Shown here: positions 15,312 to 27,915 of the stretch, piece by piece | How positions within the stretch are numbered: position 1 is the first letter of the stretch | How the letters are laid out: each line of letters opens with the position of its first letter | NCBI GenBank assembly: GCA_963847655.1 | Contig: CAWKAS010000002.1 | Coordinates: forward strand, 513,729-577,728 | DNA length: 64,000 nt | Direction: 5' to 3' | From: an uncultured Acidobacteriota bacterium | GTDB lineage: Bacteria > Acidobacteriota > Vicinamibacteria > Fen-336 | The notes under the pieces: generated by a model | Database searches by the model: none | What the model was told of the DNA's origin: nothing | What the model saw: only the letters and a program-made list of their open reading frames with translations | Program-made: the position numbers and the translations under genes

Positions 15312-16322
15312 TCACGGGGTGAGGCTGTTCAGCGCCACGAACGCCCCGCCGTTTCGCTCGCACAGCAGGCGCATGAGCGTGGCGAAACGCACCCCGGTGT
15401 TCTCCCCGTATCGGGCCTGGGAGAAGATCGTCGGGAAGCCGATGGCGTGGATGCGCACCTTGCGCTCCCCGCTCCGGTCGGGGCGGTTGAGGCGGTCGAC
15501 GGTCTCCAGCACCCGGTCGATGGAGTCGCCGGTGAACTCGTCGCCGAAGACGTAGAGGCTGATCCGGCGGTCCTGGCGCCAGTACGTGCGGATGGCGCTC
15601 TCGATCCCCTCCACCGGGCTGGAGTTCGAGAAGGCGTTCCAGCCGCGCAGCCGGTTCATGATGGCCGTCCGCCGGGCCTTCGTGTCGGGGATCCACTTCC
15701 CGGAGTATCCGGAGAACATGTAGACCCCCTCGTCGTTCATGATCTGCAGGCCCTTCACCTTCGGGTAGGCGTCGAGGACCTCCTTCATCTTGCGCTGCAC
15801 CTGGGGCCAGGCGAAGCGCTGCATCGAGCCCGAGGTGTCGATGATGAAGATGATGTACTCGCTGTCGACCGGGATCCCCCCCACCGGGGCCTCCGGGGGA
15901 CGGCGGTAGACCCTCTCCGCCTGGAGTCGCTTCATCTCCTCGCTGAGGGCCTGCTGCGCCGCCACCAGGCGCCCGGCGATCGTGTCCTGGATCTCCGACA
16001 TCTGCCGGCTGGCCTGGTACTGACCCTGGATGTCCGTGAGGTCTCCCCGCAGCCGGGCGACGTTCTTCGTCTCCTCCGAGAGCTGCTCCTCGCGGCTGCG
16101 GAGGGCCCGTTCGAACTGCGTCGTCTCCCCTCGGACCACGTGGAGCTCCTCCTCGAGGCGCGCGATGAGCCCCTGCAGGTCCTGCTGGGCCCGCTCGAGC
16201 ACCAGGGGCTCCCCCATCTTGTTGAGGACGAAGAGGAGGATGATGGCCCCGAAGCCGCAGCACACGGCGTCCAGAAAGGACAGGGAGAAGACCTCGACGT
16301 CCCGCCGCCCCCGCCTCCTCAT
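15312..16322 (-). CDS. ExbD/TolR-like N-terminal membrane anchor + coiled coil + periplasmic vWA (MIDAS) domain, paralog B
   Basis: N-terminus RRDVEVFSLSFLDAVCCGFGAIILLFVL has the ExbD/TolR-type pattern (basic tail, N-V-x-P/S-L-x-x-D, TM helix). Long coiled coil. vWA with DxSxS MIDAS motif IIFIIDTSGSMQ. Start overlaps the upstream stop (ATGA). Confidence 0.7.
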   Translation of the reverse strand: MRRRGRRDVEVFSLSFLDAVCCGFGAIILLFVLNKMGEPLVLERAQQDLQGLIARLEEELHVVRGETTQFERALRSREEQLSEETKNVARLRGDLTDIQGQYQASRQMSEIQDTIAGRLVAAQQALSEEMKRLQAERVYRRPPEAPVGGIPVDSEYIIFIIDTSGSMQRFAWPQVQRKMKEVLDAYPKVKGLQIMNDEGVYMFSGYSGKWIPDTKARRTAIMNRLRGWNAFSNSSPVEGIESAIRTYWRQDRRISLYVFGDEFTGDSIDRVLETVDRLNRPDRSGERKVRIHAIGFPTIFSQARYGENTGVRFATLMRLLCERNGGAFVALNSLTP

Positions 16323-17413
16323 GGCCAGTCGCTCGAGGGGGTCATCATCGAGCCCCGCGTGGCCATCGCCACCTTCCAGAAGGCGGGAGACGCCATCGGG
16401 TCGCCCTCCATCGGGTAGAGAATGACGTTGACCGGCACCCCGCGCGGCAGCGCGTCGAGCGCGCGCTCCAGCAACCGGAGCCGGTCCTTGCTGGAGATCG
16501 TCTTGCGCCCCGGGGCCTTCTCACCCTGGGTGGGAAGTCCGTCGGTGAGGAGCACGATGTTGTCCGGGGGCGGGTTCATGGCCCGGGCGGCGGCGAAGGC
16601 GTGGTGGAGGCTGGTGCCCCCGATGGGCGCGGTCTGGCGGAGCACGGCGATCGCCTCGTCCAGCTTCGCGCCGTCGCCGACCTCGAGCCAGACCCCTTCG
16701 GTGCCCTCGAGCACCGGCCGGGCCCGCGTGTCGAAGGCGTAGATCTGGTACCGCGCCTTCGGAGGCATCTGGGCAGCGAGCCAGTCCACCGCCTTCACCG
16801 CCTGCTGCCACTTGTCGGCGCGCATGCGGATCTCGGGAGCCAGGAAGCGGCGGCGCACCGCGTTGACGATGTCGGCGGCGAGCATGCTCGCGGAGGCATC
16901 GACCAGGACGAAGATGCGCTGCCCGCCGACCTTCAGCCCCGAGAGGTACTGTCGGTCACCGTCCCCCACGAAGCTGCGGATGTTGCGGCCGGGGACCTCC
17001 TCCCGTGGCGGCCCGCCCGAGAGCCGCTTCGCCCCCTCCTCCAGCGACTTCAGGTCCGCCTTGAGCTTGTTGACGTGCTCGCGGGTGGCGACGTTCTGCT
17101 GGTCGTAGGTGGCCAGCTCCTCCTCGATCTCGCGCAGCACGGCGAGCAGGCGGGTGGACAGCCCCTGCGTCACGACCCTCTGCCGCTCGATCTCGCGCAG
17201 GGAGTTCCTCACCTCGACGAGGTTCTCCTGCCCGTCGAGGACCTCCTCCTCCCGCATCGTGACCTCCGCCTGGAGGGCCTCGGTGACGTGGGTGAAGGTC
17301 TCCCCGGCCCGGGCGGCCACGATCATGTGAAACAGGATCAACGCCCCGAAGCCGCAGGTGATGCAGTCGAGCAGCGAAAGGCTGAAGATGTTCGTCTGGC
17401 GCTTGCGGGCCAC
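16319..17413 (-). CDS. ExbD/TolR-like anchor + coiled coil + vWA domain, paralog A (GTG start)
   Basis: VARKRQTNIFSLSLLDCITCGFGALILFHMIV; coiled coil; MIDAS FVLVDASASML. The 948 aa in the ORF track is an upstream open-frame artefact. GTG start with RBS GGAGGAGTGAGG overlapping the upstream stop. Confidence 0.65.
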   Translation of the reverse strand: MARKRQTNIFSLSLLDCITCGFGALILFHMIVAARAGETFTHVTEALQAEVTMREEEVLDGQENLVEVRNSLREIERQRVVTQGLSTRLLAVLREIEEELATYDQQNVATREHVNKLKADLKSLEEGAKRLSGGPPREEVPGRNIRSFVGDGDRQYLSGLKVGGQRIFVLVDASASMLAADIVNAVRRRFLAPEIRMRADKWQQAVKAVDWLAAQMPPKARYQIYAFDTRARPVLEGTEGVWLEVGDGAKLDEAIAVLRQTAPIGGTSLHHAFAAARAMNPPPDNIVLLTDGLPTQGEKAPGRKTISSKDRLRLLERALDALPRGVPVNVILYPMEGDPMASPAFWKVAMATRGSMMTPSSDWP

Positions 17414-17415
17414 CC

Positions 17416-18831
17416 TCACTCCTCCACCGCGATGACGAGCATCTCCTGGCCCGGGCTGCCCACGCGCACCCGGTCGCCGGGGAAGACGACGGCGCGCCCC
17501 ACGATCTGCTCCCCGTTGACGAAGGTCCCGTAGGTGCTCAGGTCCTCCAGCACGACCTCGCCGCCGACCTCGAAGAAGCGGCAGTGGGCCCGGGAGACGC
17601 CGGCGGTCTCGCCGGCGAGGCGGAGGCCCCGGGAGCCCTCCGGGGGGGCGGTGCCCACGACGAGGGGCTCCGCGGTGAGGGGGCGGGCGTGGTGGCCCAG
17701 GAGCAGGTGGGTCGGTCGCGCTCCGCCCCCGAGGGGGAAGGGGGGGGGCGCCTGGGGCACCGGGGCGGACCGGGGCACCGCCGCCGAGTCCGCAGCGCCC
17801 TCGTCGGGCGAGGGGCGCCGACGCTCGAGACGCGTGACGAAGAGCCGGAGGCCTCCCTTCACCGCGCGCAGCCTCTCGTGCGCGCGGAGGGCGCCGGCCG
17901 CCGCCAGCGACCCGGGCACCCGGACCACCCCGCTCCCCCGCATGGTGGCCAGGCGGGCCACCAGTCCCGGGATCCGTGCGGCGTGGGCGGAGACGAGAAG
18001 GGTCGTCGGCTCGCCCGGGTGCTTGAGAAGGCTCATCTTCTGGGCCAGCTCCTCGGCGTACTTCCGGGCCCACTCCTCGACCTCCGACCGCTCCACCTCG
18101 ACCTCGTGATCGCGCCCGCCACCGTCCAGGGAGAGGGCCACGCGGTCCTCCTCCTCGAGGCGCTCGAGCCAGCCGGGGAGTCGGTCGTGCAGGGCCTGCT
18201 CGGTCTCGGCGTCGTGGAAGGGGTCGAAGCGCGTCTTGTGGACGAAGGCCTGGGCGATGCGGCGAGCCAGGGCGTCGTGAACCTCCTCGAGACCCCAGCG
18301 CTCGATCGTGGCCACCCTCTCGCGGACGATCTCGTCTCCCTGCCGCAGCTCGGTCACGGTGGCCCGGTGCAGGTGCACGTCGGCCAGGAGCAGCCGCTCG
18401 CCCGGGAATCCGGTGCTGGCCGCGGCCACCGCGGCGTCGACGAGACCGACCACCGGCATCTCGAGGGCCTGGGTGATCCCCAGGAGACGGCCCAGCGCCT
18501 CCGACCCATGGAAGCCGGGCACGGCCAGGACGACCTCGCTCACCCCCGCCCCGACCTTCGTCCAGAGGCTCCGGAGGTGCGCGTGGACCAGGTCGGCGGA
18601 GGTCAACCCGTCGGGGAACGGCCGACCGAGGGGCGCGGCATCGAGGCGCTCCCAGAAGCGGCTCATCACGAAGCGCGGCCGGAGGCGCGCGCGGCTGAGG
18701 GCCTGCGGGCCCACGAGGACTCGTCCCTCCTCGACGAGGGCATAGCCCGGGCTGGGCCCGACGACCGTCCCTTCCCCGTCGACCCCGAGGACGCCGGCGT
18801 CGGTCACGTCGAAGGCGAGCGCGCGAGCCAC
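17416..18831 (-). CDS. Actin/Hsp70-fold (ASKHA-like) ATPase with C-terminal FHA domain
   Basis: N-terminus MARALAFDVTDAGVLGVDGEGTVVGPSPGYALVEEGRVLVG has a glycine-rich phosphate-loop style. C-terminus CRFFEVGGEVVLEDLSTYGTFVNGEQIVGRAVVFPGDRVRVGS is a typical FHA signature. Confidence 0.65.
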   Translation of the reverse strand: MARALAFDVTDAGVLGVDGEGTVVGPSPGYALVEEGRVLVGPQALSRARLRPRFVMSRFWERLDAAPLGRPFPDGLTSADLVHAHLRSLWTKVGAGVSEVVLAVPGFHGSEALGRLLGITQALEMPVVGLVDAAVAAASTGFPGERLLLADVHLHRATVTELRQGDEIVRERVATIERWGLEEVHDALARRIAQAFVHKTRFDPFHDAETEQALHDRLPGWLERLEEEDRVALSLDGGGRDHEVEVERSEVEEWARKYAEELAQKMSLLKHPGEPTTLLVSAHAARIPGLVARLATMRGSGVVRVPGSLAAAGALRAHERLRAVKGGLRLFVTRLERRRPSPDEGAADSAAVPRSAPVPQAPPPFPLGGGARPTHLLLGHHARPLTAEPLVVGTAPPEGSRGLRLAGETAGVSRAHCRFFEVGGEVVLEDLSTYGTFVNGEQIVGRAVVFPGDRVRVGSPGQEMLVIAVEE

Positions 18832-18846
18832 GAGCCCCTCCCCGCT

Positions 18847-19641
18847 CTAGGCCTGCAGGTGCTGGAGCAGGTGCTCGTCCACGTAGCCCTCGGTGTCGAG
18901 GACGAGGCGCTCCTGGCGGAGCTGGAGCTGGTGCAGGACGAACATGATCCCGAGGCTCAGGAGCAGCGCGATGAAGGTCGAGTTGAAGGCGGTGCCGAGG
19001 CTGGCGGTCACCCCGGAGATGTCGCCCTGCACCGCGCGGTGGGCCTGGGTGAGGGCGTCGCCGATGCCCCGCACCGTGCCGATGAAGCCGATCGACGGAA
19101 TCGCCCACGCGATGTAGCGGATCATCGCCAGCTCGGAGTCGAGACGGTCGGACTCGGCCTCGCACACCTCGCCGGCGATGGCGGAGGCGTCCTGGATGCT
19201 CCGGGTGGCCCGGAAGCGCTGCAGGGCGGCCAGGAGCGTGCGGGGGAGGAGCCGCCGCTTCTCGGTCTCGGGGAGGCCCTGGATCTGCCGGGCGTACTCA
19301 CGGGCGTCCTCGGGGAGGATGCGGGAGCCCGGGGCCACCGGCACCAGCTCCTGCTCGACGAGATTCCGCTCCCGGGCCACCGAGAGCCACTTGGATCCCA
19401 TGATCGCCAGCGCCCACAGCCCCAGGACGAAGCAGGCCTCCTGCTCGAAGTCCTTGATGACCACCCAGACCGAGCGGGCCGGGACGTACTCGGGGTCCTC
19501 CCGCATCAACCGCGCCTGCTCGGCGAGCACGGCCTCCGCGTTCGGGCGGACCACCGTCACGTAGAAGGCGTGCACGAGGACGAAGGCGAGGACGAGCGAC
19601 GAGAGCTGGTAGACAAAGTCGCCGGGCTGGGGCTTCTTCAT
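18847..19641 (-). CDS. MotA/TolQ/ExbB-family proton channel protein
   Basis: TM helices and the family core SIGFIGTVRGIGDALTQA...ASLGTAFNSTFIALLLSLGIMFV. Start taken at MKKPQPGDF; the in-frame extension upstream runs through the tandem repeat and is unlikely to be real. Confidence 0.75.
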   Translation of the reverse strand: MKKPQPGDFVYQLSSLVLAFVLVHAFYVTVVRPNAEAVLAEQARLMREDPEYVPARSVWVVIKDFEQEACFVLGLWALAIMGSKWLSVARERNLVEQELVPVAPGSRILPEDAREYARQIQGLPETEKRRLLPRTLLAALQRFRATRSIQDASAIAGEVCEAESDRLDSELAMIRYIAWAIPSIGFIGTVRGIGDALTQAHRAVQGDISGVTASLGTAFNSTFIALLLSLGIMFVLHQLQLRQERLVLDTEGYVDEHLLQHLQA

Positions 19642-19654
19642 CTCGTCGTCTGCC

Positions 19655-19896
19655 CTATCGTCTGTGGAACGCGTCGTTCTATCGTCTGCGGAACGCATCG
19701 TTTGCCCGTCGTTCCGCAGACCTTCCGTTGCCACGTTCGCCCGTTCATATCAGCGAATCCTGTTTCCTCTCTCCCCTATCGTCTGCGGAACGCGTCGTTC
19801 TATCGTCCGCGGAACGCATCGTTGTCTCATCGTTCCGCAGACCTTCCGTTGCCACGTTTGGCCGTTCATATTGGCTAAGCCTGTTTCCTCTCTCTC
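19655..19896. repeat. Tandem direct repeat, 2 x ~122 bp at ~90% identity. Each unit carries two direct copies and one inverted copy of the 13 bp motif CGTCTGCGGAACG.
   Basis: Unit 1 ctatcgtctgtggaacgcgtcgttctatcgtctgcggaacgcatcgtt...cgttccgcagacc...ttgccacgttcgcccgttcatatcag...cctgtttcctctctcc; unit 2 is nearly identical. Lies immediately 5' of the MotA-like operon and 3' of the small secreted-protein gene. Confidence 0.8.
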
Positions 19897-19913
19897 CGTT
19901 CCCCGACCTTGCT

Positions 19914-20207
19914 CTAGATATCCACCGGAAAGGCCACTCCCTGGTCGGCGGGGACCTTCTCCGTGGGCACGAATTCCTCGAGCTGCTTCTCGGCCTCCGC
20001 CGTCGGTGAGGGCTTCGGTGAGGGTGTCGGTTCGGGCGTCGGTTCGGGCGTCGGTTCGACGGCGGGCGCCTCGGCCTCCTTCTGCACCGGCGCGGGGTCC
20101 GTCGGTGTCGCCGGGTCCGGCCCGGGCGCGGGGGCCTGACCTCCAGCGGCCGCGATCGCCGCCACCGCGAGGAGAGCGAACAGCAGGTTGCGCACGAGAA
20201 CGTTCAT
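19914..20207 (-). CDS. Small secreted Pro/Glu/Thr-rich repeat protein (97 aa; signal peptide + PEPT repeats)
   Basis: MNVLVRNLLFALLAVAAIAAAGG then EPTPEPTPEPTPSPKPSPT, encoded by a ggttcgggcgtc triplet DNA repeat. 22 bp downstream of the DUF3604 gene. Confidence 0.5.
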   Translation of the reverse strand: MNVLVRNLLFALLAVAAIAAAGGQAPAPGPDPATPTDPAPVQKEAEAPAVEPTPEPTPEPTPSPKPSPTAEAEKQLEEFVPTEKVPADQGVAFPVDI

Positions 20208-20229
20208 GGTCTCCGTGTCCTGCCTGGTC

Positions 20230-22152
20230 CTACGGCGTGTACCAGATCGGCGCCGTGTAGGCGCGCTCCTGGTGAGTCGTCTCGGCGCCCTCGGGAATCT
20301 CGACGCCATAGCGAAAGGCGTCGTAGACCACCCAGCGCGGGGTGGGGATCTCGAGCACACGGGCATAGTAGAAGGCGCTCTCTGCCGGATCGAAGTCCGG
20401 ATCGGCCCAGACCGTCCCGAGCTCGGAGGCCCCAATCGTGTTGCTCCAGTTGGCCGCGGCGATGTCCACAGTGTTGCCCACCGGCGGCAGGACGCCCTTG
20501 GCGTCCGGCTTCCGCCCGACGGACCAGGCGACGTCGTAGACCTTCTCGTGTGTCTTGCCGTTGGCGTCCAGCCAGCCCTTGACGATCTGGATGCGGTCCA
20601 GGTTGGCCCCGACCACGTCGCGCAGCGCGTAGACCATGAAGGTGGGTGCGCCGCCGCCATCGTGGGGGCGGAGGTCGCCACCCATCGGCACCCCTTTCTC
20701 GTAGCCGCGGAAGGCGGGCTGGCGGCTGTTCATGTCCTCCGCCGTGTAGTCCCAACCACCGAAGAAGCGCACCGTGATCCGAGGGCCGGTGGTGCCGTAG
20801 ACCTCCTTGCGCTCCATCGCGTCCCAGATCGCCTCGCGGGTGTTCTCCTTCGCCCAGACCGCGGCGTAGCCGGAGGCGACGAGCTCGTAGCCCTCGAAGA
20901 CGCCGTTCTCGGTCTTGGTGAAGGGGTGCATCATGCGCCTCGGTGAGGGCTCGGCGTTGGTTGCCTTGCCGAAGAAGTTGTCTTCCTCGACGGCGGAAAG
21001 AGCCGTGTGGCTGTCGGTCGAGCCGACCAGGCCGAACTTGTAGGGGTTGGTGCCGAGCCGTTCCTCCAGCAGCAGGCCATTCTTCAGGGCCTCGCGGGCG
21101 TACTCGTGCTGCAGCATGTCCCGGGTCTTGGCCTCGGAAAGATCGAGGTTTCCGGCGTCCCAGGTCTCGTAGTCGGCGAAGGCGTCGTCGGGCGACAGGA
21201 AGGGATGCGCCTCGCCATCGCCCTTGATCTGGGTGATCTCGTACATCGGCTCCCATCGCGCCCGCGACTCGACGTACTTCTGGTCGAGCTTGCGGCCCGT
21301 GTACTGGGCGTCGACCGGGAACATGATTCCGTTCGACAGGTTGCCGTTGTGAGCCAGTGCAAGCGCAGAGCCACCGGTCTTGGCCTCGTAGTTCTCGAGA
21401 TATGCGTAGAGATCGAGCGGATCGGTCGAGCCCACCGGAGCCTGGGTGGTGTAGGGCACGACCTGGCCTGCCTTCGCGGCGCCTTCGCGGAAGATCACGT
21501 TGCGGTGCAGGTTGTTGCCCTGGACCAGCGATGTCCACTCGAAGCCGATCAAGGTCGTGAACTTGCCAGGATCGTTGAACCGCTCGGCGGCGTCGATCAC
21601 CTTCTCCCAGATCGAGGCGTAGGTCTTCCCGCCGGGCGAGTACTCCTTCATCATCTCCGGATCGATCTTTCCCTGAGAGAACGTCCCGATCAGATCCAGT
21701 GCGGCTGCCGTCGAAGCCTCCCCACCGACCTGCAGGCCGTCGTACCAGCGCCTGGCCTGGTCGAACTTGATGATCCCGGGCTCACCTGCCTCGAGATCGT
21801 TGAAGAAGCCCATACCATCGGAGTGGTCGGCGATCACCAGCCAGTCGAGCGGGCGGCCAAGCCGGGCCGGCTGGCCGCTCGAGGAGGTCACTTGCTCGCC
21901 GCGGGCGAAGCGGTACGCCTCATCGAGGCCGAGGCGCGCACCGAACAGGCCGGCATCCATCGAGAGGCCAGTGTGCAGGTGGGTGTCGCCCCAGAACACC
22001 TTGTCGGGAAAGCCGCGCTCCGCATAGGGCGAGTAGGCCTTCCCGGGATAGAGGCCGGAAAGGGACTCCTCCGACGGCGTGATCTGCGCCGCCACCGGGC
22101 TGGCGAGGGCGAGAAACACCGCGCCGATCGCCAGGAGTGTGCATCGCTTCAT
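20230..22152 (-). CDS. Secreted DUF3604-family protein
   Basis: 640 aa with signal peptide [23 protein letters not shown]; composition and length fit DUF3604 (family assignment from memory). Confidence 0.55.
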
Positions 22153-22170
22153 TTCGATTCTCCCTCCCTC

Positions 22171-24591
22171 TCACTCCGCGTACCGCGCGATGCGGAAACC
22201 CAGGTCCGGCCGGGGCTCCCTGGCGTAGTCGCGGTAGCTCAGGCGGAGCTCGGTGACGGAGGCGTGCCTCCAGCTCGCCCCCCTGATCACATGGTACTCG
22301 CCCTCGGCGGGACCGGTAGGGTCGCGCACGAGGCTGCCCGACATCGAGGGGGTGATCGTGTACAGGTCGTGCATCCACTCCGCCACGTTGCCGCCGAGGT
22401 GGTAGATCCCCAGCGCGTTGGGCGCGAGGGAGCCCACCGGGGCCGTGGCCGCATACCCATCGGTGTAGTCGGGCAGCGTGCGCCGGAGGAGCTCGCGCGC
22501 GCTCTGGTCGCCGTAGTTCCCGGCCTCCGGGGGAACCGGGAAGGCCTTGCCCCAGGGATAGCGCAGGGGGCCCTGGCCGCCCGGGTAGCGCGCCACCCGC
22601 TCCCACTCGGCCTCGGTGGGGAGACGGTACCCGGTCGTCAGCGGGACCGTCGCCGCGAGCTGGCCCCCGCGCCGCTCGTAGGCCGGGGGCAGGCCGTCCT
22701 TCTGGCTGAGCCAGTTGCAGTAGGCGGCGGCCTCCTCCCAGCCGACGCGCACCACCGGGTAGTTGTCGATGTTCAGGCTCTGGGTCCCGGCACGCCCCGA
22801 GTCGTGGGTGGCGACGAACTCGCGGAACTGGGCGTTGGTGACCTCGGTGGTGGCCATGTAGAACGGCCGGACGAGCTCGACGTCGCGAAGCGGCTCGTTC
22901 GCGCGGCGGCCGGGCTCGCGGCGCGACGCCCCCATCTGGATCCGCATGCCCTTCACCAGGACCAGCTCCTGACCGGAGGCGGCGGTGATCCGAGGCGGCA
23001 GCGACTCCTCCCGGGCCTGCTCCTCGCTCTTGAGGGCGACCTTCACCGCCTGGGGAAAGCCGGGCCGGGGGGTCACCGTCTGCTTGTGGGGGAGGTAGCC
23101 CGGGCGGCGGATCACGATCTCGTGGGGGAGCGCGATGAGGGTCAGCGTCTGGCTCGCCCGGCCCCGGGGCTCTCCGTCCACCAGCAGCTCGGCGTCCGGG
23201 GGGCGCGCGTCGACCTGCACCTCCCCCATGCGGGGAGCGAGGCGCAGCGACTCCTCGCGGCGCTCCCCGGGGGCGATCTCCACCGCCAGCGTCGCGTCCT
23301 CGTAGCCGGCCTTCCCCACCTTCACCGCGAGGGCGCGACGAGGGGCCACGACCAGCTCGACGGGCGTCTCCCCGCGCCACTGGCCGTCCACCGTCACGGC
23401 CGCCCCCGCGGGATCGCTGGCCAGCACGAGCACGGCGTCCGCGGGAACCAGGTCGACTCCGGGCAGGGTGAGGGGCTGGCCGGCCACGACGTCGATCCGC
23501 CGCGTGGCGGGCTTGAAGGCGCCCAGCGAGTAGGTCACCGCCCGACGTCCGGCGCTGACCGCGGCGGTGAGAGGGGTCGTGCCGAGGGACCGCCCGTCCA
23601 CCCGCACCGTCGCCCCCGGCGGGTTGGTGGCGAAGGTCACGGGCGCGCTGTTGGCCAGGAGCTCGACCTCCAGCCTCTGCTCGATGCCCCGGCCCTCGAT
23701 CTCGAGCACGGTGCGGAAGGCGACGTAGCCCTCGGCGCGGACCACGATCTCGCGCTCGCCCGCGGGCACGGAGACCGGCGCGAGCGGCGAGGTCCCCACC
23801 ACCTCGCCGTCGACCAGGACCTCGGCGCCCTCGACGTCCCCGGCGTCGACGAGGAGACGGCCGGGAAGACGCTCGAGGGTGTACTCCAGCGTCTGGCGGG
23901 ACGCGGTGGTCACCTCGACGGACACCTCCAGACGCTGGTACCCCTCCTTCTCCGCGACCAGGGTGTAGGAGCCGGGCCGAGCCAGGTAGCTCGAGCCATA
24001 GGAGACGGCGGGGGGGAAGCCCTCGAGGGCGACGTCGTCGGGTTCGGGCTCGATCGCCACCTCGACCGAGCGCGCGGTGGCGATGAAGGCAACGAGCAGC
24101 GCCGCCGCCGCGACGACGGCGCCGATCAGCAGACGCGAGAGCCGGCGGCGCAGGTCGCTCCTCGGACTCGCCCCCGCCGTCCCCGGGGTGAAGGTGATCG
24201 GGGTGACGGCGCGCCCGGGGGCCGCGTCGTCCGCGCCCGGGGCCGGGTCACGGGGCGGGGGCACCAGGACGACCGGCGGCTCGGTGGGGTTGAGGTCGGC
24301 GAGCTGCTCGACGCGGAGGTGCAGGCCGTCAGAGCGTCGGGCGGCCTCGAGATGGGTGGCCCCGATGCGCAGCACGTCGCCGTCGCGCAGCCAGTGCGAG
24401 GCCGTCAGCCGGGCGCCGTTGCAGAGCACGGGCACCCCGGCCGCCGGCTGGATGAACACCTCGCCCTCCTCGAAGCCGAGCCAGGCGAGGGGAGCCGGCG
24501 TCCCGGGCATGACGACCGGGGAGTCGGGGCCGCCGAGGGCGATCGGGAAGTCCGCCTCCCCCAGACGGGTCGTCCGCCCCCCGTCCTCCAC
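22171..24591 (-). CDS. Multidomain membrane protein: N-terminal FHA-like, TM helix, PEGA repeats, C-terminal FGE-sulfatase (SUMF1-like) domain
   Basis: FHA-like VLCNGARLTASHWLRDGDVLRIG. TM LIGAVVAAAALLVAFIA. Several PEGA-like repeats. C-terminus NAQFREFV...PVVRVGWEEAAAYCNWLS...YRLPTEAEWERVAR...GGNVAEWMHD...HVIRGASW matches FGE/SUMF1. Confidence 0.75.
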   Translation of the reverse strand: MEDGGRTTRLGEADFPIALGGPDSPVVMPGTPAPLAWLGFEEGEVFIQPAAGVPVLCNGARLTASHWLRDGDVLRIGATHLEAARRSDGLHLRVEQLADLNPTEPPVVLVPPPRDPAPGADDAAPGRAVTPITFTPGTAGASPRSDLRRRLSRLLIGAVVAAAALLVAFIATARSVEVAIEPEPDDVALEGFPPAVSYGSSYLARPGSYTLVAEKEGYQRLEVSVEVTTASRQTLEYTLERLPGRLLVDAGDVEGAEVLVDGEVVGTSPLAPVSVPAGEREIVVRAEGYVAFRTVLEIEGRGIEQRLEVELLANSAPVTFATNPPGATVRVDGRSLGTTPLTAAVSAGRRAVTYSLGAFKPATRRIDVVAGQPLTLPGVDLVPADAVLVLASDPAGAAVTVDGQWRGETPVELVVAPRRALAVKVGKAGYEDATLAVEIAPGERREESLRLAPRMGEVQVDARPPDAELLVDGEPRGRASQTLTLIALPHEIVIRRPGYLPHKQTVTPRPGFPQAVKVALKSEEQAREESLPPRITAASGQELVLVKGMRIQMGASRREPGRRANEPLRDVELVRPFYMATTEVTNAQFREFVATHDSGRAGTQSLNIDNYPVVRVGWEEAAAYCNWLSQKDGLPPAYERRGGQLAATVPLTTGYRLPTEAEWERVARYPGGQGPLRYPWGKAFPVPPEAGNYGDQSARELLRRTLPDYTDGYAATAPVGSLAPNALGIYHLGGNVAEWMHDLYTITPSMSGSLVRDPTGPAEGEYHVIRGASWRHASVTELRLSYRDYAREPRPDLGFRIARYAE

Positions 24592-24605
24592 GTGAACGGC
24601 GATGC

Positions 24606-26546
24606 TCAGATGGCCTCCTCGCAGCGCACCACGATCGGTGGCGGCGTGGCCGCGGGCTCCACCACCAGCTGCCGACGCACGTCGCGGTAGCCGCTCCGCG
24701 TCCCGACCACGGTGTAGGTGCCCGGCCGAAGGTCGAGCGTCAGGCGCTCGAACGCGCCGAGGCGCCCCACCTTGTGTACCACGACCTCGGTCTTGCCGTC
24801 GGACTCCAGCACCACTCCCACCGGCGTGCGCATCTCCACGAGGGCGCGCTCGAGGTCCGCCACCTGCTTGCGGTGGCGCGGTCCGGGGGCGTCGATCTCA
24901 CGGGCCTGCTGGAGGAGCACCTCGGCCTCGCCCGCCACCGCGTCCGTGGCCAGCCGCAGCGGGTGGTCGACGTGGTAGGCCAGCTTCTCGGCCAGCTCCG
25001 CGCGCCGCGTCGCCCGCTCGCGACCCTCGAGGGCGAACGCGACCGCGGGGTCGAGTTTGAGCGCCGTCTCGTACTCGGCCAGGGCCCGGCGCCAGTCCTC
25101 TTGCGTCTCGTAGCCGCGGGCCAGGTCGCGCTGCCGGGCGAGGGCGGCCGTCCGCTCCGCCTCCTCGATGCGCCCTCGAGCGTCGGCCACCACGGGAGAG
25201 CCGGGCTGGAGGGCGGCGGCACGCGCCAGCCCCTCCCGCGCCGCGGGCCAGTCGGCCCGCTCGAGGGCCGCCTCCGCGTCCGACATGGCCGCCGCGAACG
25301 CCTCGCTCGCCCCCCCTTCCGGCGGCTCGCGAGAGGGGTTCGTGGATGGGGGTTCCACCGCCTCGGGCGCCGGCTCACGAGGCGCGGGGGGCGGTGTGGG
25401 AGTCGCCTCCGCCGGCATCGCCCGCTCCGCGGCTCGCGCGGGAGGGGACTCGAGCCGAGGCGTCGGGTGGGACTCCGCCTCGGGTGGAGGGGGTGAGGGC
25501 ACGGCTTCGGCGGTGGCGGCGACCGGCGGGGCCGGGCGTTCGGCCAGGCGGGGCAGGACCAGCACCACGAACAGCACGGCGGCGGCGAGGAGTCCGAGCA
25601 GAGCGGCCTGGGCGAGGGGAAAGGAGCGAGGCGACGGGGGCGACGGCGGCGAGAGAGGGGCCTTCGGGGTCGGGACCCCCACCCCGCGTACACGAGGAGG
25701 CGGCTGCAGACGCACCTCCCGCGGACGCGACACCGGGCGGGCCGGGCCCCCGAGCTCCTCTTCGATTCCCCGCAGGGCCTCTTCGACCGCGGCCATGTCG
25801 CGCGGTCTCTCCTCGGGCGCCTTCGCGAGCATCGACGCGACCAGCCCCCGCAGGCTCTCCGGGATGGGGTGGGGCCCGGCCAGGGGCGGCGGCGGCACGG
25901 AGCGGAGCTCGTCCCGGGTGGCCCCCGCGGGGCGGCTCGAGAGGAGCTCGTGGAGCAGCGCGCCCAGGGCGTACACGTCGTCCGCAGGCTGCGCGGGGGC
26001 GCCCGCGCGCTGCTGGGGGCTCATGCTCGCCCGGGAGCCGCCCCCGTGGAGGACCAGGCCCTCGTCGTCGAGGGAGGCGGCGACGGCCGCGATCCCGAAG
26101 TCGGCGAGGTGGGCACGGCCGGATGCGTCGAGCAGGACGTTGGTGGGCTTGACGTCGCGGTGCACCACCCCGAGCCCGTGGAGGTGGCCGAGGGCGTGGG
26201 CCACCTCGCCCGCGAGACGGACGATCGCCCGCGGCTCGCCGCCACGCAGCCGACCGGCGTCGCCCCCCGGCATGTAGCGCGAGACGACGGCCGCGCCGTG
26301 GGGTCCCTGCTCGAAGCCGTACACGGGGACGATCCCCGGGTGCTGCACCTTGCGGACGAGCCGGGCCTCGCGGCGCAGGAGGGCGACGCGGTCCGCGGGG
26401 GCGTCAGCGGGGAGGAGCTTGGCCACGACCTCCTCGCCCCGCGAGGCGTCGCGGGCCAGCCAGGCCTCGCCCATGCCCCCGCGCCCGAGCCGGCGCACGA
26501 GCGTGAGGTGGGGCAGGAACTCGAGCCCGGGCTCCAGCGGGGTCAT
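24606..26546 (-). CDS. Ser/Thr protein kinase with Pro-rich linker, TM, TPR-like region and C-terminal PEGA domain
   Basis: Start at MTPLEPGLEF (ORF-track N-extension is an artefact). GxGxxG LGRGGMGEAWLA; VAKL Lys; HRDVKPTNVLL; DFG; PEGA at the C-terminus. Confidence 0.8.
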   Translation of the reverse strand: MTPLEPGLEFLPHLTLVRRLGRGGMGEAWLARDASRGEEVVAKLLPADAPADRVALLRREARLVRKVQHPGIVPVYGFEQGPHGAAVVSRYMPGGDAGRLRGGEPRAIVRLAGEVAHALGHLHGLGVVHRDVKPTNVLLDASGRAHLADFGIAAVAASLDDEGLVLHGGGSRASMSPQQRAGAPAQPADDVYALGALLHELLSSRPAGATRDELRSVPPPPLAGPHPIPESLRGLVASMLAKAPEERPRDMAAVEEALRGIEEELGGPARPVSRPREVRLQPPPRVRGVGVPTPKAPLSPPSPPSPRSFPLAQAALLGLLAAAVLFVVLVLPRLAERPAPPVAATAEAVPSPPPPEAESHPTPRLESPPARAAERAMPAEATPTPPPAPREPAPEAVEPPSTNPSREPPEGGASEAFAAAMSDAEAALERADWPAAREGLARAAALQPGSPVVADARGRIEEAERTAALARQRDLARGYETQEDWRRALAEYETALKLDPAVAFALEGRERATRRAELAEKLAYHVDHPLRLATDAVAGEAEVLLQQAREIDAPGPRHRKQVADLERALVEMRTPVGVVLESDGKTEVVVHKVGRLGAFERLTLDLRPGTYTVVGTRSGYRDVRRQLVVEPAATPPPIVVRCEEAI

Positions 26547-26568
26547 CAGGGGGCGGGGCGAGCGGCTC

Positions 26569-27915
26569 TCACGACCCCTGGGTCTCGGCCCCGAAGACGC
26601 CCGCATCGAGGGGCGGGGCCGGGGGAGGCTCGACCACCACGGGGGGCGCCATGGCCCCGGTCCCTTCGCCCGCGGGGGCGGCGGTGGCCTCGGCCGGCGC
26701 CGGGGGCGGGGAGCTGACGTTGATGTCCTCGGGCAGCGCGGCGTCGGTCCGGGCGATCTGCCGGAGCAGCGCCCTCCATTGCCCGAACTGCTCCTCTGCC
26801 GACCCCTTGAGCTCGACGATCTTCCCGTCGACGTCCACGATGAGCTCCGACACGTCGGCGCCGAAGGACTCCCCGAGCTCCTCGAGGGCGTCCTTGTGGA
26901 TCTCCGACTCGGCCTTGTCCTGGAAGCCGCTCTGGATGGCGGCGACCCCGCCGATGATCGCGATGTCCCGGATGTCCCCGTCCGCACCCCTGCGGTCGCC
27001 CGGGGCGAACAGGCCCCCGAGGATGGCCAGGCCACCGCCGATCCACTTCGCCCACTTCTTGTTGTTGATCGCGTCGTAGGCCGCCTGCTCGGTGTAGCTG
27101 TTGGCCCGCCAGTCGTCGTAGGGCTTGCCCATCCGCGCGTGGAAGTCGGAGTAGTACGCGTTGAGGGTGTCCACGAACATGTCGTCCCGCTCGCGGATGA
27201 GGCGGAGGCGGAGGAGCATCGGGTCGGACTCGTCCGGCAGCCGCGCCACCTCGTACCGGCCCTTCCCGTCCGTCTCGAGGTAGGGACCGAACGTGTCGGG
27301 GGCGAACTCCGAGGCGAAACGGAGGCGGGCCACCTCGCGGATGTGCACCAGCTCCTCTCTCTTCCGCTTCTCGCGCGCCTTCAACAGGTCGTTGGCGATC
27401 TCGTTGTAGAGGCTCTGGAAGGGATCGAGTCCGTCCACGTTCTCGGCGGCGTAGGACAGCACCCGGGCCTTGTGCTGGTAGTCCTCGTCGAGCCACTTCC
27501 GTCCCGTGGCGTCCCAGGCCACGACCTGCACCTTGAGCTCCTTGCCGTGGGACTTCTCGATCTTGCCGAGGATGGACAGCTCGGCCCAGGGCACGCCCCC
27601 GGGCACCACGCGGACCGCGCCCCACTGCCCGGTGGACTGCAGGGTGTTGCGCAGATGGGTGGGGATGAAGCGCGCCTCGGCCTTGCGCACCGACGGCTGG
27701 ACGCCCTTCTCGGTGAGGGCCTCGCGGTCGTGGTCGTCGATGCTGGGCGAGAACAGGTCGATGGCCACGTCCAGCAGCCGCTCCTCCGGGATCTCGCCGT
27801 CGGGGAGATCCGCCTCGACGTAGTCGTCACCGGCCAGGGCGACGGGGGCCGGCCCCAGTCCGACGAGCACCGCCAGCACCGCCGCGAGCACCTTCCCAGC
27901 ACGACGTCCGTTCAT
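26569..27915 (-). CDS. Secreted/lipoprotein-like hypothetical protein
   Basis: MNGRRAGKVLAAVLAVLVGLGPAPVALAGDD signal; RBS GGGGGAG; no family recognised. Confidence 0.55.
   Translation of the reverse strand: MNGRRAGKVLAAVLAVLVGLGPAPVALAGDDYVEADLPDGEIPEERLLDVAIDLFSPSIDDHDREALTEKGVQPSVRKAEARFIPTHLRNTLQSTGQWGAVRVVPGGVPWAELSILGKIEKSHGKELKVQVVAWDATGRKWLDEDYQHKARVLSYAAENVDGLDPFQSLYNEIANDLLKAREKRKREELVHIREVARLRFASEFAPDTFGPYLETDGKGRYEVARLPDESDPMLLRLRLIRERDDMFVDTLNAYYSDFHARMGKPYDDWRANSYTEQAAYDAINNKKWAKWIGGGLAILGGLFAPGDRRGADGDIRDIAIIGGVAAIQSGFQDKAESEIHKDALEELGESFGADVSELIVDVDGKIVELKGSAEEQFGQWRALLRQIARTDAALPEDINVSSPPPAPAEATAAPAGEGTGAMAPPVVVEPPPAPPLDAGVFGAETQGS

What the first reader, a model, noticed from the sequence alone, without database searches (positions are those of the whole stretch)
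19655..19896. Two ~122 bp tandem repeat units with an internal 13 bp palindromic motif directly upstream of the MotA-like operon
Each unit carries two direct copies (25 bp spacing) of TATCGTCTG(C/T)GGAACGC(A/G)TCGTT and an inverted copy CGTTCCGCAGACC. This gives six related sites across 240 bp, ending at the proposed start codon of the MotA-like gene. It looks like an array of binding sites for a dimeric regulator, or a duplicated promoter/operator. It could also be a small repeat element. The in-frame upstream ORF extension of the MotA-like gene runs through the repeat and is probably not translated.
Basis: seen in the sequence. Interest (0 to 1): 0.6.

Follow-up and report, generated by a model that had tools for sequence, protein, structure and literature searches.

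The report
Duplicated hairpin leader cassette in Acidobacteria
The repeat is real: it is two tandem copies of a small cassette, found only in a narrow group of uncultured Acidobacteria, whose core is a very stable hairpin of nearly invariant sequence; it sits where the ribosome-binding spacer of a MotA/ExbB-like gene used to be and also precedes two unrelated genes in relatives, so it is probably a copied-around gene-expression control element rather than an operator belonging to this operon.

Summary
Observation confirmed. Window 19649-19894 holds two 121-nt tandem units (89% identical) carrying six related 13-mers.

Read on the minus (gene) strand, each unit has:
- about 45 nt of conserved 5' sequence ending in a purine hexamer GGAAGG;
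- a 12-bp hairpin (GUCUGCGGAACG, 14-nt loop, CGUUCCGCAGAC; -22 to -25 kcal/mol);
- a 24-nt duplication that adds a second 3' arm.

The cassette is not specific to this operon. It also precedes a 2Fe-2S/molybdoenzyme operon and a DedA-like gene in a related MAG. It is absent from six of the orthologous MotA-like loci examined, where stop and start codons are 1-12 nt apart or separated by an unrelated 100-nt spacer. Related loci carry a bare hairpin, one unit or two units. No other copy lies in the 64-kb window, and Rfam has no match.

The arms are 97-100% conserved, against 63% for the loop and 80% for synonymous sites, so they are under selection. There is no covariation. G.U wobbles occur only on the gene strand.

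Best reading (about 0.4): a propagated, transcribed hairpin cassette acting on translation initiation of the downstream gene. I rate it a new member of a known kind, of moderate interest.

The parts
19896..19913 (-). Possible decayed remnant of a further 5' arm (AGCAAGGTCGGGGAACGG) directly after the stop codon TAG (19916-19914) of the small secreted-protein gene
   Evidence: Read from the sequence. L009 has a clear 14-nt truncated copy GGAAGGTCTGCGGA at the same place. The covariance model did not detect the window remnant, so this is tentative.
19776..19895 (-). Unit A (distal copy of the cassette)
   Evidence: TRF period 121. Covariance model R1 hit at 19796-19895, 112 bits, E 6e-32.
19655..19775 (-). 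Unit B (proximal copy of the cassette)
   Evidence: TRF. R1 hit at 19675-19774, 119 bits, E 6e-34.
19831..19842 (-). Unit A 5' arm GTCTGCGGAACG, preceded by the purine hexamer GGAAGG
   Evidence: This arm is invariant in 13 of 13 aligned units.
19805..19816 (-). Unit A first 3' arm CGTTCCGCGGAC (one U.G wobble with the 5' arm); the 14-nt loop is 19817-19830
   Evidence: Hairpin MFE -21.7 kcal/mol, z = -5.2. Pair counts.
19781..19792 (-). Unit A second 3' arm CGTTCCGCAGAC (perfect complement), created by a 24-nt internal duplication
   Evidence: TRF 24-nt repeat at 19776-19823.
19710..19721 (-). Unit B 5' arm GTCTGCGGAACG
19684..19695 (-). Unit B first 3' arm CGTTCCGCAGAC; the loop is 19696-19709
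   Evidence: Hairpin MFE -24.6 kcal/mol, z = -6.5.
19660..19671 (-). Unit B second 3' arm CGTTCCACAGAC (one C.A mismatch)
   Evidence: TRF 24-nt repeat at 19655-19702.
19642..19653 (-). Junction GCAGAC + 6 nt (GACGAG) + ATG. The GCAGAC-N6-start arrangement is kept at all six MotA-locus proximal copies.
   Evidence: No GGAGG-type Shine-Dalgarno here, unlike the neighbouring genes.
19750..19869 (-). Small ORF A (39 aa, MNGQTWQRKVCGT...). Its stop TGA lies 1 nt before the ATG of small ORF B.
   Evidence: Not conserved as a coding feature: the ATG is ACG, ACA, ATA or GCG in 6 of 13 units, and there is an in-frame TGA in L005 and L009a.
19638..19748 (-). Small ORF B (36 aa). Its stop TGA overlaps the ATG of the MotA-like gene (ATGA).
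   Evidence: The same overlap occurs in L006, L012 and L013.
18847..19641 (-). MotA/ExbB-like gene (264 aa), the first gene downstream of the cassette
   Evidence: Pfam PF01618, E 4.5e-13. Orthologues of 264 aa.
19914..20207 (-). Small secreted Pro/Thr/Glu-rich protein gene, the upstream neighbour. In six related loci its stop codon lies 1-12 nt (five loci) or an unrelated 100 nt (L022) before the MotA-like start.

Best explanation
The repeat is two tandem copies, plus a possible decayed third remnant, of a roughly 95-120-nt cassette confined to a narrow lineage and read on the minus strand. Its functional core is a 12-bp hairpin with a 14-nt loop and nearly invariant arm sequences. A purine, Shine-Dalgarno-like hexamer (GGARRG) flanks it on the 5' side, and at the MotA locus the start codon lies 6 nt beyond a GCAGAC arm end.

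Shown:
- The cassette was inserted into a conserved operon exactly at the stop/start junction between the small secreted-protein gene and the MotA-like gene. It replaces a spacer that is 1-12 nt long in five of the six cassette-free loci, four of which have a G-rich Shine-Dalgarno-like run.
- The same cassette sits in the leader of two unrelated operons in a related MAG.
- Copy number at the MotA locus varies from a bare hairpin to two units among close relatives.
- The arms are under purifying selection.

Inferred: the cassette is transcribed as part of the mRNA and acts in cis at the RNA level on the translation-initiation region of the downstream gene. The hairpin would do one or both of two things. 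It could bridge an upstream SD-like hexamer to the start codon, as in the split ribosome-binding sites of phage T4 genes 25 and 38, and enforce coupling to upstream translation. Or it could serve as a sequence-specific 'translational operator' for an unknown factor. In the window, further 24-nt and 12-nt duplications moved the hairpin away from the ATG. They created two small ORFs whose stop codons abut the next start codon, which may relay ribosomes to the MotA-like gene. The tandem state arose by local duplication between the repeated arms.
For: - Family and orientation: strict hairpin and 5'-block patterns and model R1 find the cassette upstream of three gene types, always in the orientation of the downstream gene.
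- Insertion: cassette-free orthologues have conserved flanks. Five of six MotA-type loci have a 1-12 nt gap and the sixth has an unrelated 100-nt spacer. In the 2Fe-2S context the cassette lies between a conserved GATAAT-like box and the SD GGGGAGG, so it is inside transcribed RNA.
- Selection: arm identity is 100% and 97%, against 63% for the loop and 80% for the 5' flank. Third codon positions of the adjacent gene are 80% identical.
- Stability: -21.7 to -24.6 kcal/mol, z = -5 to -6.5. The whole leader has z = -4.1.
- Strand: 8 alignment cells are G.U on the gene strand and would be C.A on the other strand; none go the other way.
- Translation-initiation context: the MotA-like gene lacks the GGAGG-type SD that four neighbouring genes have. 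GCAGAC-N6-start is kept in 6 of 6 loci, and GGARRG abuts the 5' foot.
- The small-ORF stops abut the next start.
- Precedent for hairpin-bridged ribosome-binding sites at an intercistronic junction: PMC3014915.
- No Rfam family matches.
Against: - No covariation: 10 of 14 pairs never vary, and 183 of 500 shuffles reach the observed score. RNA pairing is therefore not proven.
- Complete sequence invariance of both arms is more typical of protein-DNA recognition than of a purely structural RNA stem.
- In the window itself the hairpin foot is 42 nt (arm 1) or 18 nt (arm 2) from the ATG, so the split-RBS geometry holds only in relatives (L002, L006, L009, L013, and L012 through its second arm).
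- In the 2Fe-2S context the gene has its own SD after the cassette, and in the DedA context the start codon is 25 nt away.
- Distribution is patchy: the CAVOYO MAG has only the MotA copy and the JAJDNS MAG only the other two by the strict pattern. That is not what a stable regulon predicts.
- There are no transcript data, and the trans-acting factor is unknown.
Confidence: 0.4

Rival explanations
1. DNA-level control cassette. The 12-N14-12 inverted repeat is an operator for a dimeric or tetrameric regulator, comparable in logic to CIRCE/HrcA. It may travel with a promoter in the conserved 5' part. The tandem units and extra 3' arms would then be extra operators or half-sites, or a duplicated promoter.
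For: Both arms are sequence-invariant, while the spacer varies in sequence but keeps its length: 14 nt, or 13 nt in the 2Fe-2S context. The position between the upstream region and the start codon is classical for repressor operators. The cassette meets the published criteria for 'putative mobile promoters': at least 80% identity over at least 50 nt before unrelated genes (PMC3575422). GGAAC...CGTT within the arms resembles ECF-type -35/-10 elements (from memory).
Against: No sigma-70-like promoter was found in the window cassette or in the regions spanning the L007 and L008 (DedA) cassettes; the cassette-free L027 upstream region also has none. The GGAAC-to-CGTT spacing is 14-15 nt, against the 16-17 nt usual for ECF promoters. 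A 12-bp arm is longer than a usual half-site, and the centre-to-centre distance of 26 bp puts the arms on opposite faces of the helix. At the MotA locus the cassette lies inside an operon, and in the 2Fe-2S context it lies downstream of a conserved -10-like box. The wobble asymmetry favours RNA. No regulator gene is linked to any of the three contexts.
Confidence: 0.22
2. A selfish or neutral small repeat (MITE/REP/BOX-like) that landed in intergenic DNA and expanded by slippage, with no regulatory role.
For: Presence or absence differs between close relatives at two loci. Partial, single, double and differently bounded copies exist: a bare hairpin in L002, a duplication in L010 that carries 33 nt of the upstream gene, and an 11-nt remnant in L025. 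Submodules are variably repeated, as in BOX elements. Distribution among MAGs is patchy.
Against: Copy number is very low: no other copy in 64 kb plus roughly 160 kb of related loci, and at most 2 per genome. There are no terminal inverted repeats or target-site duplications. Orientation and position relative to start codons are the same in all three contexts. The arms stay intact at orthologous loci that are about 20% diverged at synonymous sites, while the loop decays. Inserted selfish DNA would decay uniformly. No hits in viral contigs or plasmids.
Confidence: 0.15
3. The units encode small proteins (39 and 36 aa), or their translation as a relay of coupled small ORFs is the primary function.
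For: An SD-like AGGA lies 9-10 nt before the ATG. The stop of ORF A lies 1 nt before the ATG of ORF B, and the stop of ORF B overlaps the MotA ATG. The same relay is seen in L006 and L012, and in single form in L013. Indels of 24 and 12 nt keep the reading frame.
Against: The ATG is replaced by ACG, ACA, ATA or GCG in 6 of 13 units. There are in-frame stops in L005 and L009a. Substitutions are not biased towards synonymous positions. L002 has no such ORF. Open frames of about 37 codons are expected by chance about 25% of the time at this GC content (my own arithmetic). Frame-keeping by two indels has a chance of about 1 in 9.
Confidence: 0.08
4. Tandem sibling small-RNA genes. Each unit would be a roughly 100-nt sRNA with a single-stranded conserved 5' 'seed' and a 3' hairpin.
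For: The architecture (conserved unpaired 5' region plus a stable terminal hairpin) and the tandem arrangement resemble sibling sRNAs such as PrrF1/2 or OmrA/B (from memory). A conserved block AACGTGGCAACGGAAGG is present.
Against: No promoter was detected before the units, and no U-tract follows the hairpin. Units abut start codons and always point the same way as the gene. The 5' block was partly imposed by the search pattern, and it differs in L013.
Confidence: 0.06

Closest known systems
Putative mobile promoters / propagated upstream regions (Matus-Garcia, Nijveen and van Passel 2012; PMC3575422)
   Same: Highly similar non-coding sequence lies in front of non-homologous genes: 83-91% identity over about 90 nt, and L001 and L005 come from the same MAG. 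There is no associated transposase and no match to Rfam or to known mobile elements. The authors explicitly allow that such elements may be post-transcriptional regulators rather than promoters.
   Different: No promoter is detectable here. The cassette reaches to within 6-25 nt of the start codon, whereas their screen covered -150 to -50. It is tandemly duplicated at one locus and lies inside an operon.
Split ('accommodated') ribosome-binding sites of phage T4 genes 25 and 38 (reviewed in PMC3014915)
   Same: A stable hairpin sits between an SD-like element and the start codon at an intercistronic junction. It arose only in a sub-lineage. The folded structure would shorten SD-to-AUG spacing to about 6 nt (L002, L006, L009, L013).
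   Different: The hairpin here is larger (38 nt, against about 16-17 nt removed in T4). The same hairpin also occurs before genes that have their own SD or a distant start. In the window the geometry is broken by extra duplications. Nothing has been tested experimentally.
CIRCE/HrcA-type inverted-repeat control elements (PMC4152365 for the definition; details from memory)
   Same: A perfect inverted repeat has conserved arms and a spacer of constant length but free sequence. It lies between the upstream region and the start codon of several unlinked operons.
   Different: The arm and spacer lengths are 12-N14-12 rather than 9-N9-9. The sequence is unrelated and no cognate repressor is known. 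There is an extra conserved asymmetric 5' region and tandem copies. The downstream genes are not chaperones.
REP/REPIN, BOX, ERIC and Correia-type small intergenic repeats
   Same: A short palindromic intergenic element, with presence or absence differing between close relatives. It has a modular build with variably repeated submodules, like BOX.
   Different: Copy number is one or two per genome instead of tens to hundreds. There are no terminal inverted repeats, target duplications or inverted doublets. Position and orientation relative to start codons are fixed.
Riboswitches and other cis-regulatory leader RNAs (Rfam)
   Same: A conserved leader element lies upstream of unrelated genes, and tandem copies occur in some riboswitch classes.
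   Different: No Rfam hit even at E = 10. There is only one simple hairpin, no multi-helix ligand pocket and no covariation. It is restricted to a very narrow clade.

Membership tests
Putative mobile promoter (PMP) | [quoted passage not shown] | tested here: met
   L001 against L005 (both from MAG JAJDNS01): 91% over 89 nt. Window unit B against L005: 89%; against L001: 83%.
Putative mobile promoter (PMP) | Downstream coding sequences are not homologous | tested here: met
   MotA_ExbB, Fer2/Fer2_2 plus MoCoBD, VTT/DedA domain.
Putative mobile promoter (PMP) | Actually contains a promoter | tested here: inconclusive
   The sigma-70 consensus scan found none in the window leader or in the L007, L008 and L027 upstream regions. 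Alternative sigma factors are not covered by that scan.
Split RBS (T4 gene 25/38 type) | SD element separated from the start codon by a stable hairpin that restores a functional spacing | tested here: inconclusive
   GGARRG abuts the 5' foot, and GCAGAC-N6-ATG/GTG is present in L002, L006b, L009b and L013 (and L012b through its second arm). In the window the foot is 18 or 42 nt from the ATG. Function is not testable here.
CIRCE-like operator | Inverted repeat with conserved arms and a fixed-length spacer upstream of several operons | tested here: met
   Arm identity 97-100%; spacer 14 nt (13 nt in L001 and L007) with 63% identity.
CIRCE-like operator | Bound by a cognate repressor as double-stranded DNA | not testable with these tools
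   No regulator gene is linked to any of the three contexts.
REP/REPIN | Tens to hundreds of copies per genome, often as inverted doublets | tested here: not met
   No further copy in 64 kb or in roughly 160 kb of related loci. The strict pattern gives at most 2 hits per species genome across 185,579 genomes. Copies are in direct tandem, not inverted.
MITE (Correia/ERIC type) | Terminal inverted repeats and target-site duplication | tested here: not met
   The inverted repeat is internal. Alignments of filled and empty sites show no duplicated flank.
Rfam cis-regulatory RNA families | Match to a curated covariance model | tested here: not met
   No match at gathering score in the window. No match at E <= 10 in 19400-20100.
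Structured regulatory RNA (generic) | Base pairs supported by compensatory changes | tested here: inconclusive
   98% of cells are paired, but only 1 double change; 183 of 500 shuffles do as well. A tentative second helix in the 5' part is only 68% paired. Eight G.U cells are compatible only with the gene strand.
Intrinsic terminator | GC-rich hairpin followed by a U-tract | tested here: not met
   The scan found none on the minus strand. The sequence after the hairpin is GACGAUAG.
RNA thermometer (ROSE/fourU) | Weak hairpin that itself sequesters the SD or AUG and melts at physiological temperature | tested here: not met
   The hairpin is -22 to -25 kcal/mol with 12 perfect pairs. The start codon is outside the helix.
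ECF-sigma promoter | GGAAC -35 element and CGT -10 element separated by 16-17 nt (consensus from memory) | tested here: not met
   GGAAC and CGTT lie in the two arms but are 14-15 nt apart.
Conserved small protein / leader peptide | Start codon and open frame conserved, with substitutions biased towards synonymous sites | tested here: not met
   ATG present in only 7 of 13 units; in-frame TGA in L005 and L009a; changes fall at codon positions 1 and 2.

The most novel reading that the evidence does not exclude
The invariant hairpin is a new sequence-specific translational operator, or a hairpin-bridged ribosome-binding site, carried on a leader cassette that can be copied to new genes. In one clade of uncultured Acidobacteria it has replaced the Shine-Dalgarno spacer of an operon-internal gene and wired three unrelated operons (MotA/ExbB-FHA-vWA, a 2Fe-2S/molybdoenzyme, DedA) to one unknown RNA-binding factor. 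Unit and arm copy number would tune the response.
Probability: 0.2. Interest if true: 0.6.

Novelty: new member of a known kind. Interest (0 to 1): 0.4.

Why it matters
The locus shows, over a short evolutionary distance, how a piece of non-coding DNA can be copied in front of unrelated genes. In one operon it took over a translation-initiation junction that was previously only 1-12 nt long in most related loci.

If the hairpin is a translational operator or a bridged ribosome-binding site, two things follow. It would be a rare bacterial, non-phage example of that mechanism. It would also point to an unknown regulator in a phylum with almost no experimentally defined regulation.

It also affects annotation. 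The hairpin region spawns spurious ORFs on both strands and a false N-terminal extension of the MotA-like gene.

If the element is inert, it is still a clean example of tandem expansion driven by repeated hairpin arms.

Tried and rejected
- Rfam at gathering and at permissive thresholds: nothing.
- Sigma-70 promoter and intrinsic-terminator scans of the window leader and of the L007, L027 and L008 upstream regions: no promoter. The only terminator-like site is on the plus strand of unit A and is not conserved in unit B.
- Sigma-54 reading of TGGCAAC-GGAAGG-TCTGC: the GG-to-GC spacing is wrong by 3 nt (by inspection).
- ECF-type promoter readings at several GGAAC/GAAAC/GCAAC positions: spacings are 1-3 nt too short (by inspection).
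- A second helix in the 5' region (columns 22-29 with 40-47): 7-8 bp in L001, L005 and L007 with one compensatory pair, but only 68% paired overall and not above the controls.
- Conserved small protein: rejected.
- Phage or plasmid origin: 0 hits in viral contigs and no plasmid match.
- Literature search for the arm sequences: only unrelated primers.
- The two hairpin-pattern hits in Mediterraneibacter and Streptomyces (L003, L004) lack the 5' region. About one chance hit was expected from my arithmetic, so I treated them as chance.
- L011 is a chance match inside a low-GC coding region.
- The exact MotA-like protein of the window is not on record, so the source contig could not be identified.
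- P0005 and P0141 returned no DNA.

Full report
OBSERVATION. Tandem Repeats Finder reports a 121-nt period, 2.0 copies, 89% matches and a score of 401 at 19649-19894. It also finds nested 24-nt repeats at 19655-19702 and 19776-19823. The 13-mer CGTCTGCGGAACG has six sites with at most one mismatch, all between 19659 and 19843: four direct and two inverted. The other six matches in the 64-kb window are scattered, and five of them carry two mismatches. The description is therefore correct apart from small details. The period is 121, and the direct copies are 24 nt apart. The region is 55-59% GC in a roughly 70% GC background.

ANATOMY. All genes here are on the minus strand, in this order:
- protein kinase (24606-27035);
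- PEGA/FGE-sulfatase (22171-24591);
- DUF3604 (20230-22152);
- a small secreted Pro-rich protein (19914-20207);
- the repeat;
- MotA/ExbB-like (ATG at 19641, ends 18847);
- an FHA-domain protein (17416-18831);
- two vWA proteins.

Read in the gene sense, each unit consists of:
- a purine run and GGAAACAGG;
- about 35 nt containing AACG motifs and AACGTGGCAACGGAAGG;
- the 5' arm GTCTGCGGAACG;
- a 14-nt loop;
- the 3' arm CGTTCCGCAGAC;
- GATAGAACGACG followed by a second 3' arm, which is the 24-nt duplication.

After unit B come GATAGG, a partial arm GCAGAC, GACGAG, and then the ATG.

The hairpins fold at -21.7 and -24.6 kcal/mol (z = -5.2 and -6.5). The whole 284-nt leader has z = -4.1.

THE SAME CASSETTE ELSEWHERE. 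A scan of 185,579 species genomes for both arms found three relevant loci. Two are in the Acidobacteria MAG JAJDNS01, and there the complete cassette is present. One (L001) lies upstream of a 2Fe-2S subunit gene followed by a molybdopterin subunit, with a divergently transcribed gene on the other side. The other (L005) lies between a penicillin-binding-protein gene and a DedA/VTT gene. The third is in the Acidobacteriota MAG CAVOYO01 (L002). It is the orthologous small-gene/MotA-like junction and carries only the bare hairpin. Two further hits, in Mediterraneibacter and Streptomyces, lack everything but the arms and are taken as chance.

A metagenome scan anchored only on the 5' blocks, leaving the hairpin free, found four more MotA-type loci. 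L006, L009 and L012 each carry two units before the MotA-like start; L010, whose contig ends inside its second unit, also carries two. It also found an orthologue of L001 (L007) and a copy identical to L005 (L008).

A covariance model built from 12 units finds no other copy in the 64-kb window. It also finds none in roughly 160 kb of related loci.

So the family is real but low in copy number. Three gene contexts are known, and the cassette always points the same way as the gene it precedes. Identity between contexts is 83-91% over about 90 nt.

IT IS A DERIVED INSERTION. The MotA-like protein has many orthologues at 68-96% identity.
- In L014, L015/L016, L017/L018, L019 and L020 (84-91% identity) the small gene's stop codon is 1-12 nt from the MotA-like start. 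Most have a G-rich SD-like run in that gap.
- L022 has an unrelated 100-nt spacer.
- L013 (96% identity) has one unit and a GTG start.
- All seven cassette-bearing loci also carry the DUF3604 gene, and all six cassette-free loci lack it. The cassette therefore marks one subclade.
- In the 2Fe-2S context, orthologues at 89-91% identity lack the cassette while the flanks align. A GATAAT-like box lies upstream and the SD GGGGAGG lies downstream of the insertion point. L025 keeps an 11-nt piece, GGCTTCATCGA.
- In L010 the duplicated segment includes 33 nt of the small gene's 3' end. Tandem copies therefore arise by local duplication, not by repeated insertion.

SELECTION. Across 13 units the 5' arm is 100% identical and the 3' arm 97%. 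The loop is 63% identical and the 5' flank 80%. Third codon positions of the first 80 MotA-like codons are 80% identical among the same loci. Search-pattern bias cannot explain this. The loci, L013 and the window were not selected on their arms. The hairpin is thus maintained at each locus, which argues against inert inserted DNA.

RNA OR DNA? There is no covariation. Ten of 14 pairs never vary, and 183 of 500 shuffles reach the observed score. Invariant arms with a spacer of fixed length but free sequence resemble a protein-recognised palindrome. On the other hand, eight alignment cells are G.U on the gene strand and would be C.A on the opposite strand, and none go the other way. The cassette also lies inside transcribed RNA in at least two contexts: operon-internal at the MotA locus, and between the -10-like box and the SD in the 2Fe-2S context. 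No sigma-70-type promoter or terminator is detected. Sigma-54 and ECF readings fail on spacing (by inspection). I favour an RNA-level role, but not strongly.

LINK TO TRANSLATION INITIATION. The FHA, small, DUF3604 and first vWA genes have GGAGG-type SDs. The MotA-like gene does not. In L002, L006, L009 and L013 a purine hexamer (GGAGGG, GGAAGG or GGAGAG) abuts the 5' foot of the hairpin, and the start codon lies exactly 6 nt after the 3' foot. In L012 this holds for the second 3' arm. This is the geometry of the split ribosome-binding sites of phage T4 genes 25 and 38. There, a hairpin between the SD and the AUG restores a functional spacing at an intercistronic junction, and it evolved only in a sub-lineage (PMC3014915).

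In the window the extra 24-nt and 12-nt duplications put the foot 42 or 18 nt from the ATG. Each unit also carries a small ORF, of 39 and 36 aa. The first stops 1 nt before the second ATG, and the second stops on the MotA-like ATG (ATGA). The same relay exists in L006 and L012, and in single form in L013. The small ORFs are not conserved as proteins. Their ATG is missing in six of 13 units, L005 and L009a have in-frame stops, and substitutions are not biased towards synonymous positions. They may still pass ribosomes on to the next start. These steps are inference.

COMPARISON WITH KNOWN KINDS.
- The cassette fits the published operational definition of a putative mobile promoter or propagated upstream region. 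The authors of that definition note that such elements may be post-transcriptional regulators (PMC3575422).
- It works most like a hairpin embedded in a translation-initiation region (T4 split RBS, translational operator), or alternatively like a CIRCE-type inverted-repeat operator.
- It fails the tests for REP/REPIN and MITE families (copy number, termini), for all Rfam families, for intrinsic terminators, for RNA thermometers, and for conserved small proteins.

VERDICT. The operon-specific operator reading is weakened, and the 'small repeat element' reading is right as a description. The most likely function is a cis-acting, transcribed hairpin cassette at the translation start (about 0.4). 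A DNA operator/promoter cassette comes second (about 0.22), followed by an inert repeat (about 0.15). I rate it a new member of a known kind, with interest 0.4.

Noticed in passing
window 20001-20058: A 12-nt tandem repeat (CGTCGGTTCGGG x 4.8) lies inside the small secreted-protein gene and encodes a (PEPT)n-like linker. The gene's length varies from 58 to 97 aa among orthologues.
   Followed up: partly
window 15312-27035 (minus strand); L014, L015, L017, L020, L022: A conserved cluster is syntenic in more than 10 metagenomic loci of Acidobacteria: Ser/Thr kinase, PEGA/FGE-sulfatase, small secreted protein, MotA/ExbB-like, FHA-domain protein, TM/coiled-coil/vWA, vWA-like. Its function is unknown.
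   Followed up: partly
window 20230-22152: A DUF3604 gene is inserted into that cluster only in the subclade that also carries the hairpin cassette (7 of 7 loci against 0 of 6).
   Followed up: yes
L010 1-190: The tandem duplication of the unit carries along the last 33 nt of the small gene, including its stop codon. This indicates an independent local duplication with different breakpoints.
   Followed up: partly
L009 400-420; window 19896-19913: A truncated copy of the 5' arm (GGAAGGTCTGCGGA) lies directly after the small gene's stop codon, ahead of the two full units. The window has a degenerate version at the same place.
   Followed up: partly
L025 4275-4300: A cassette-free orthologue of the 2Fe-2S leader keeps 11 nt (GGCTTCATCGA) identical to the 5' part of the cassette. 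This is either a deletion remnant or the source of that part.
   Followed up: partly
window 18847-19734 and 19664-20260: The repeat generates spurious long ORFs: a GTG-started extension of the MotA-like gene, and a 198-aa plus-strand ORF running through both units. Both are likely annotation traps.
   Followed up: yes
L014 14473-15275; L015 14519-15248; L022 14510-15461: Directly downstream of the conserved cluster, relatives carry different mobile or defence-type genes: Y2 transposase fragments, a HEPN plus nucleotidyltransferase pair, and AbiEii. This suggests a variable region at the cluster's end.
   Followed up: no
window 19564-19603: An 18-nt imperfect repeat (2.1 copies) lies within the first transmembrane segment of the MotA-like gene. 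It is probably just repetitive Leu/Val/Ala codons.
   Followed up: no
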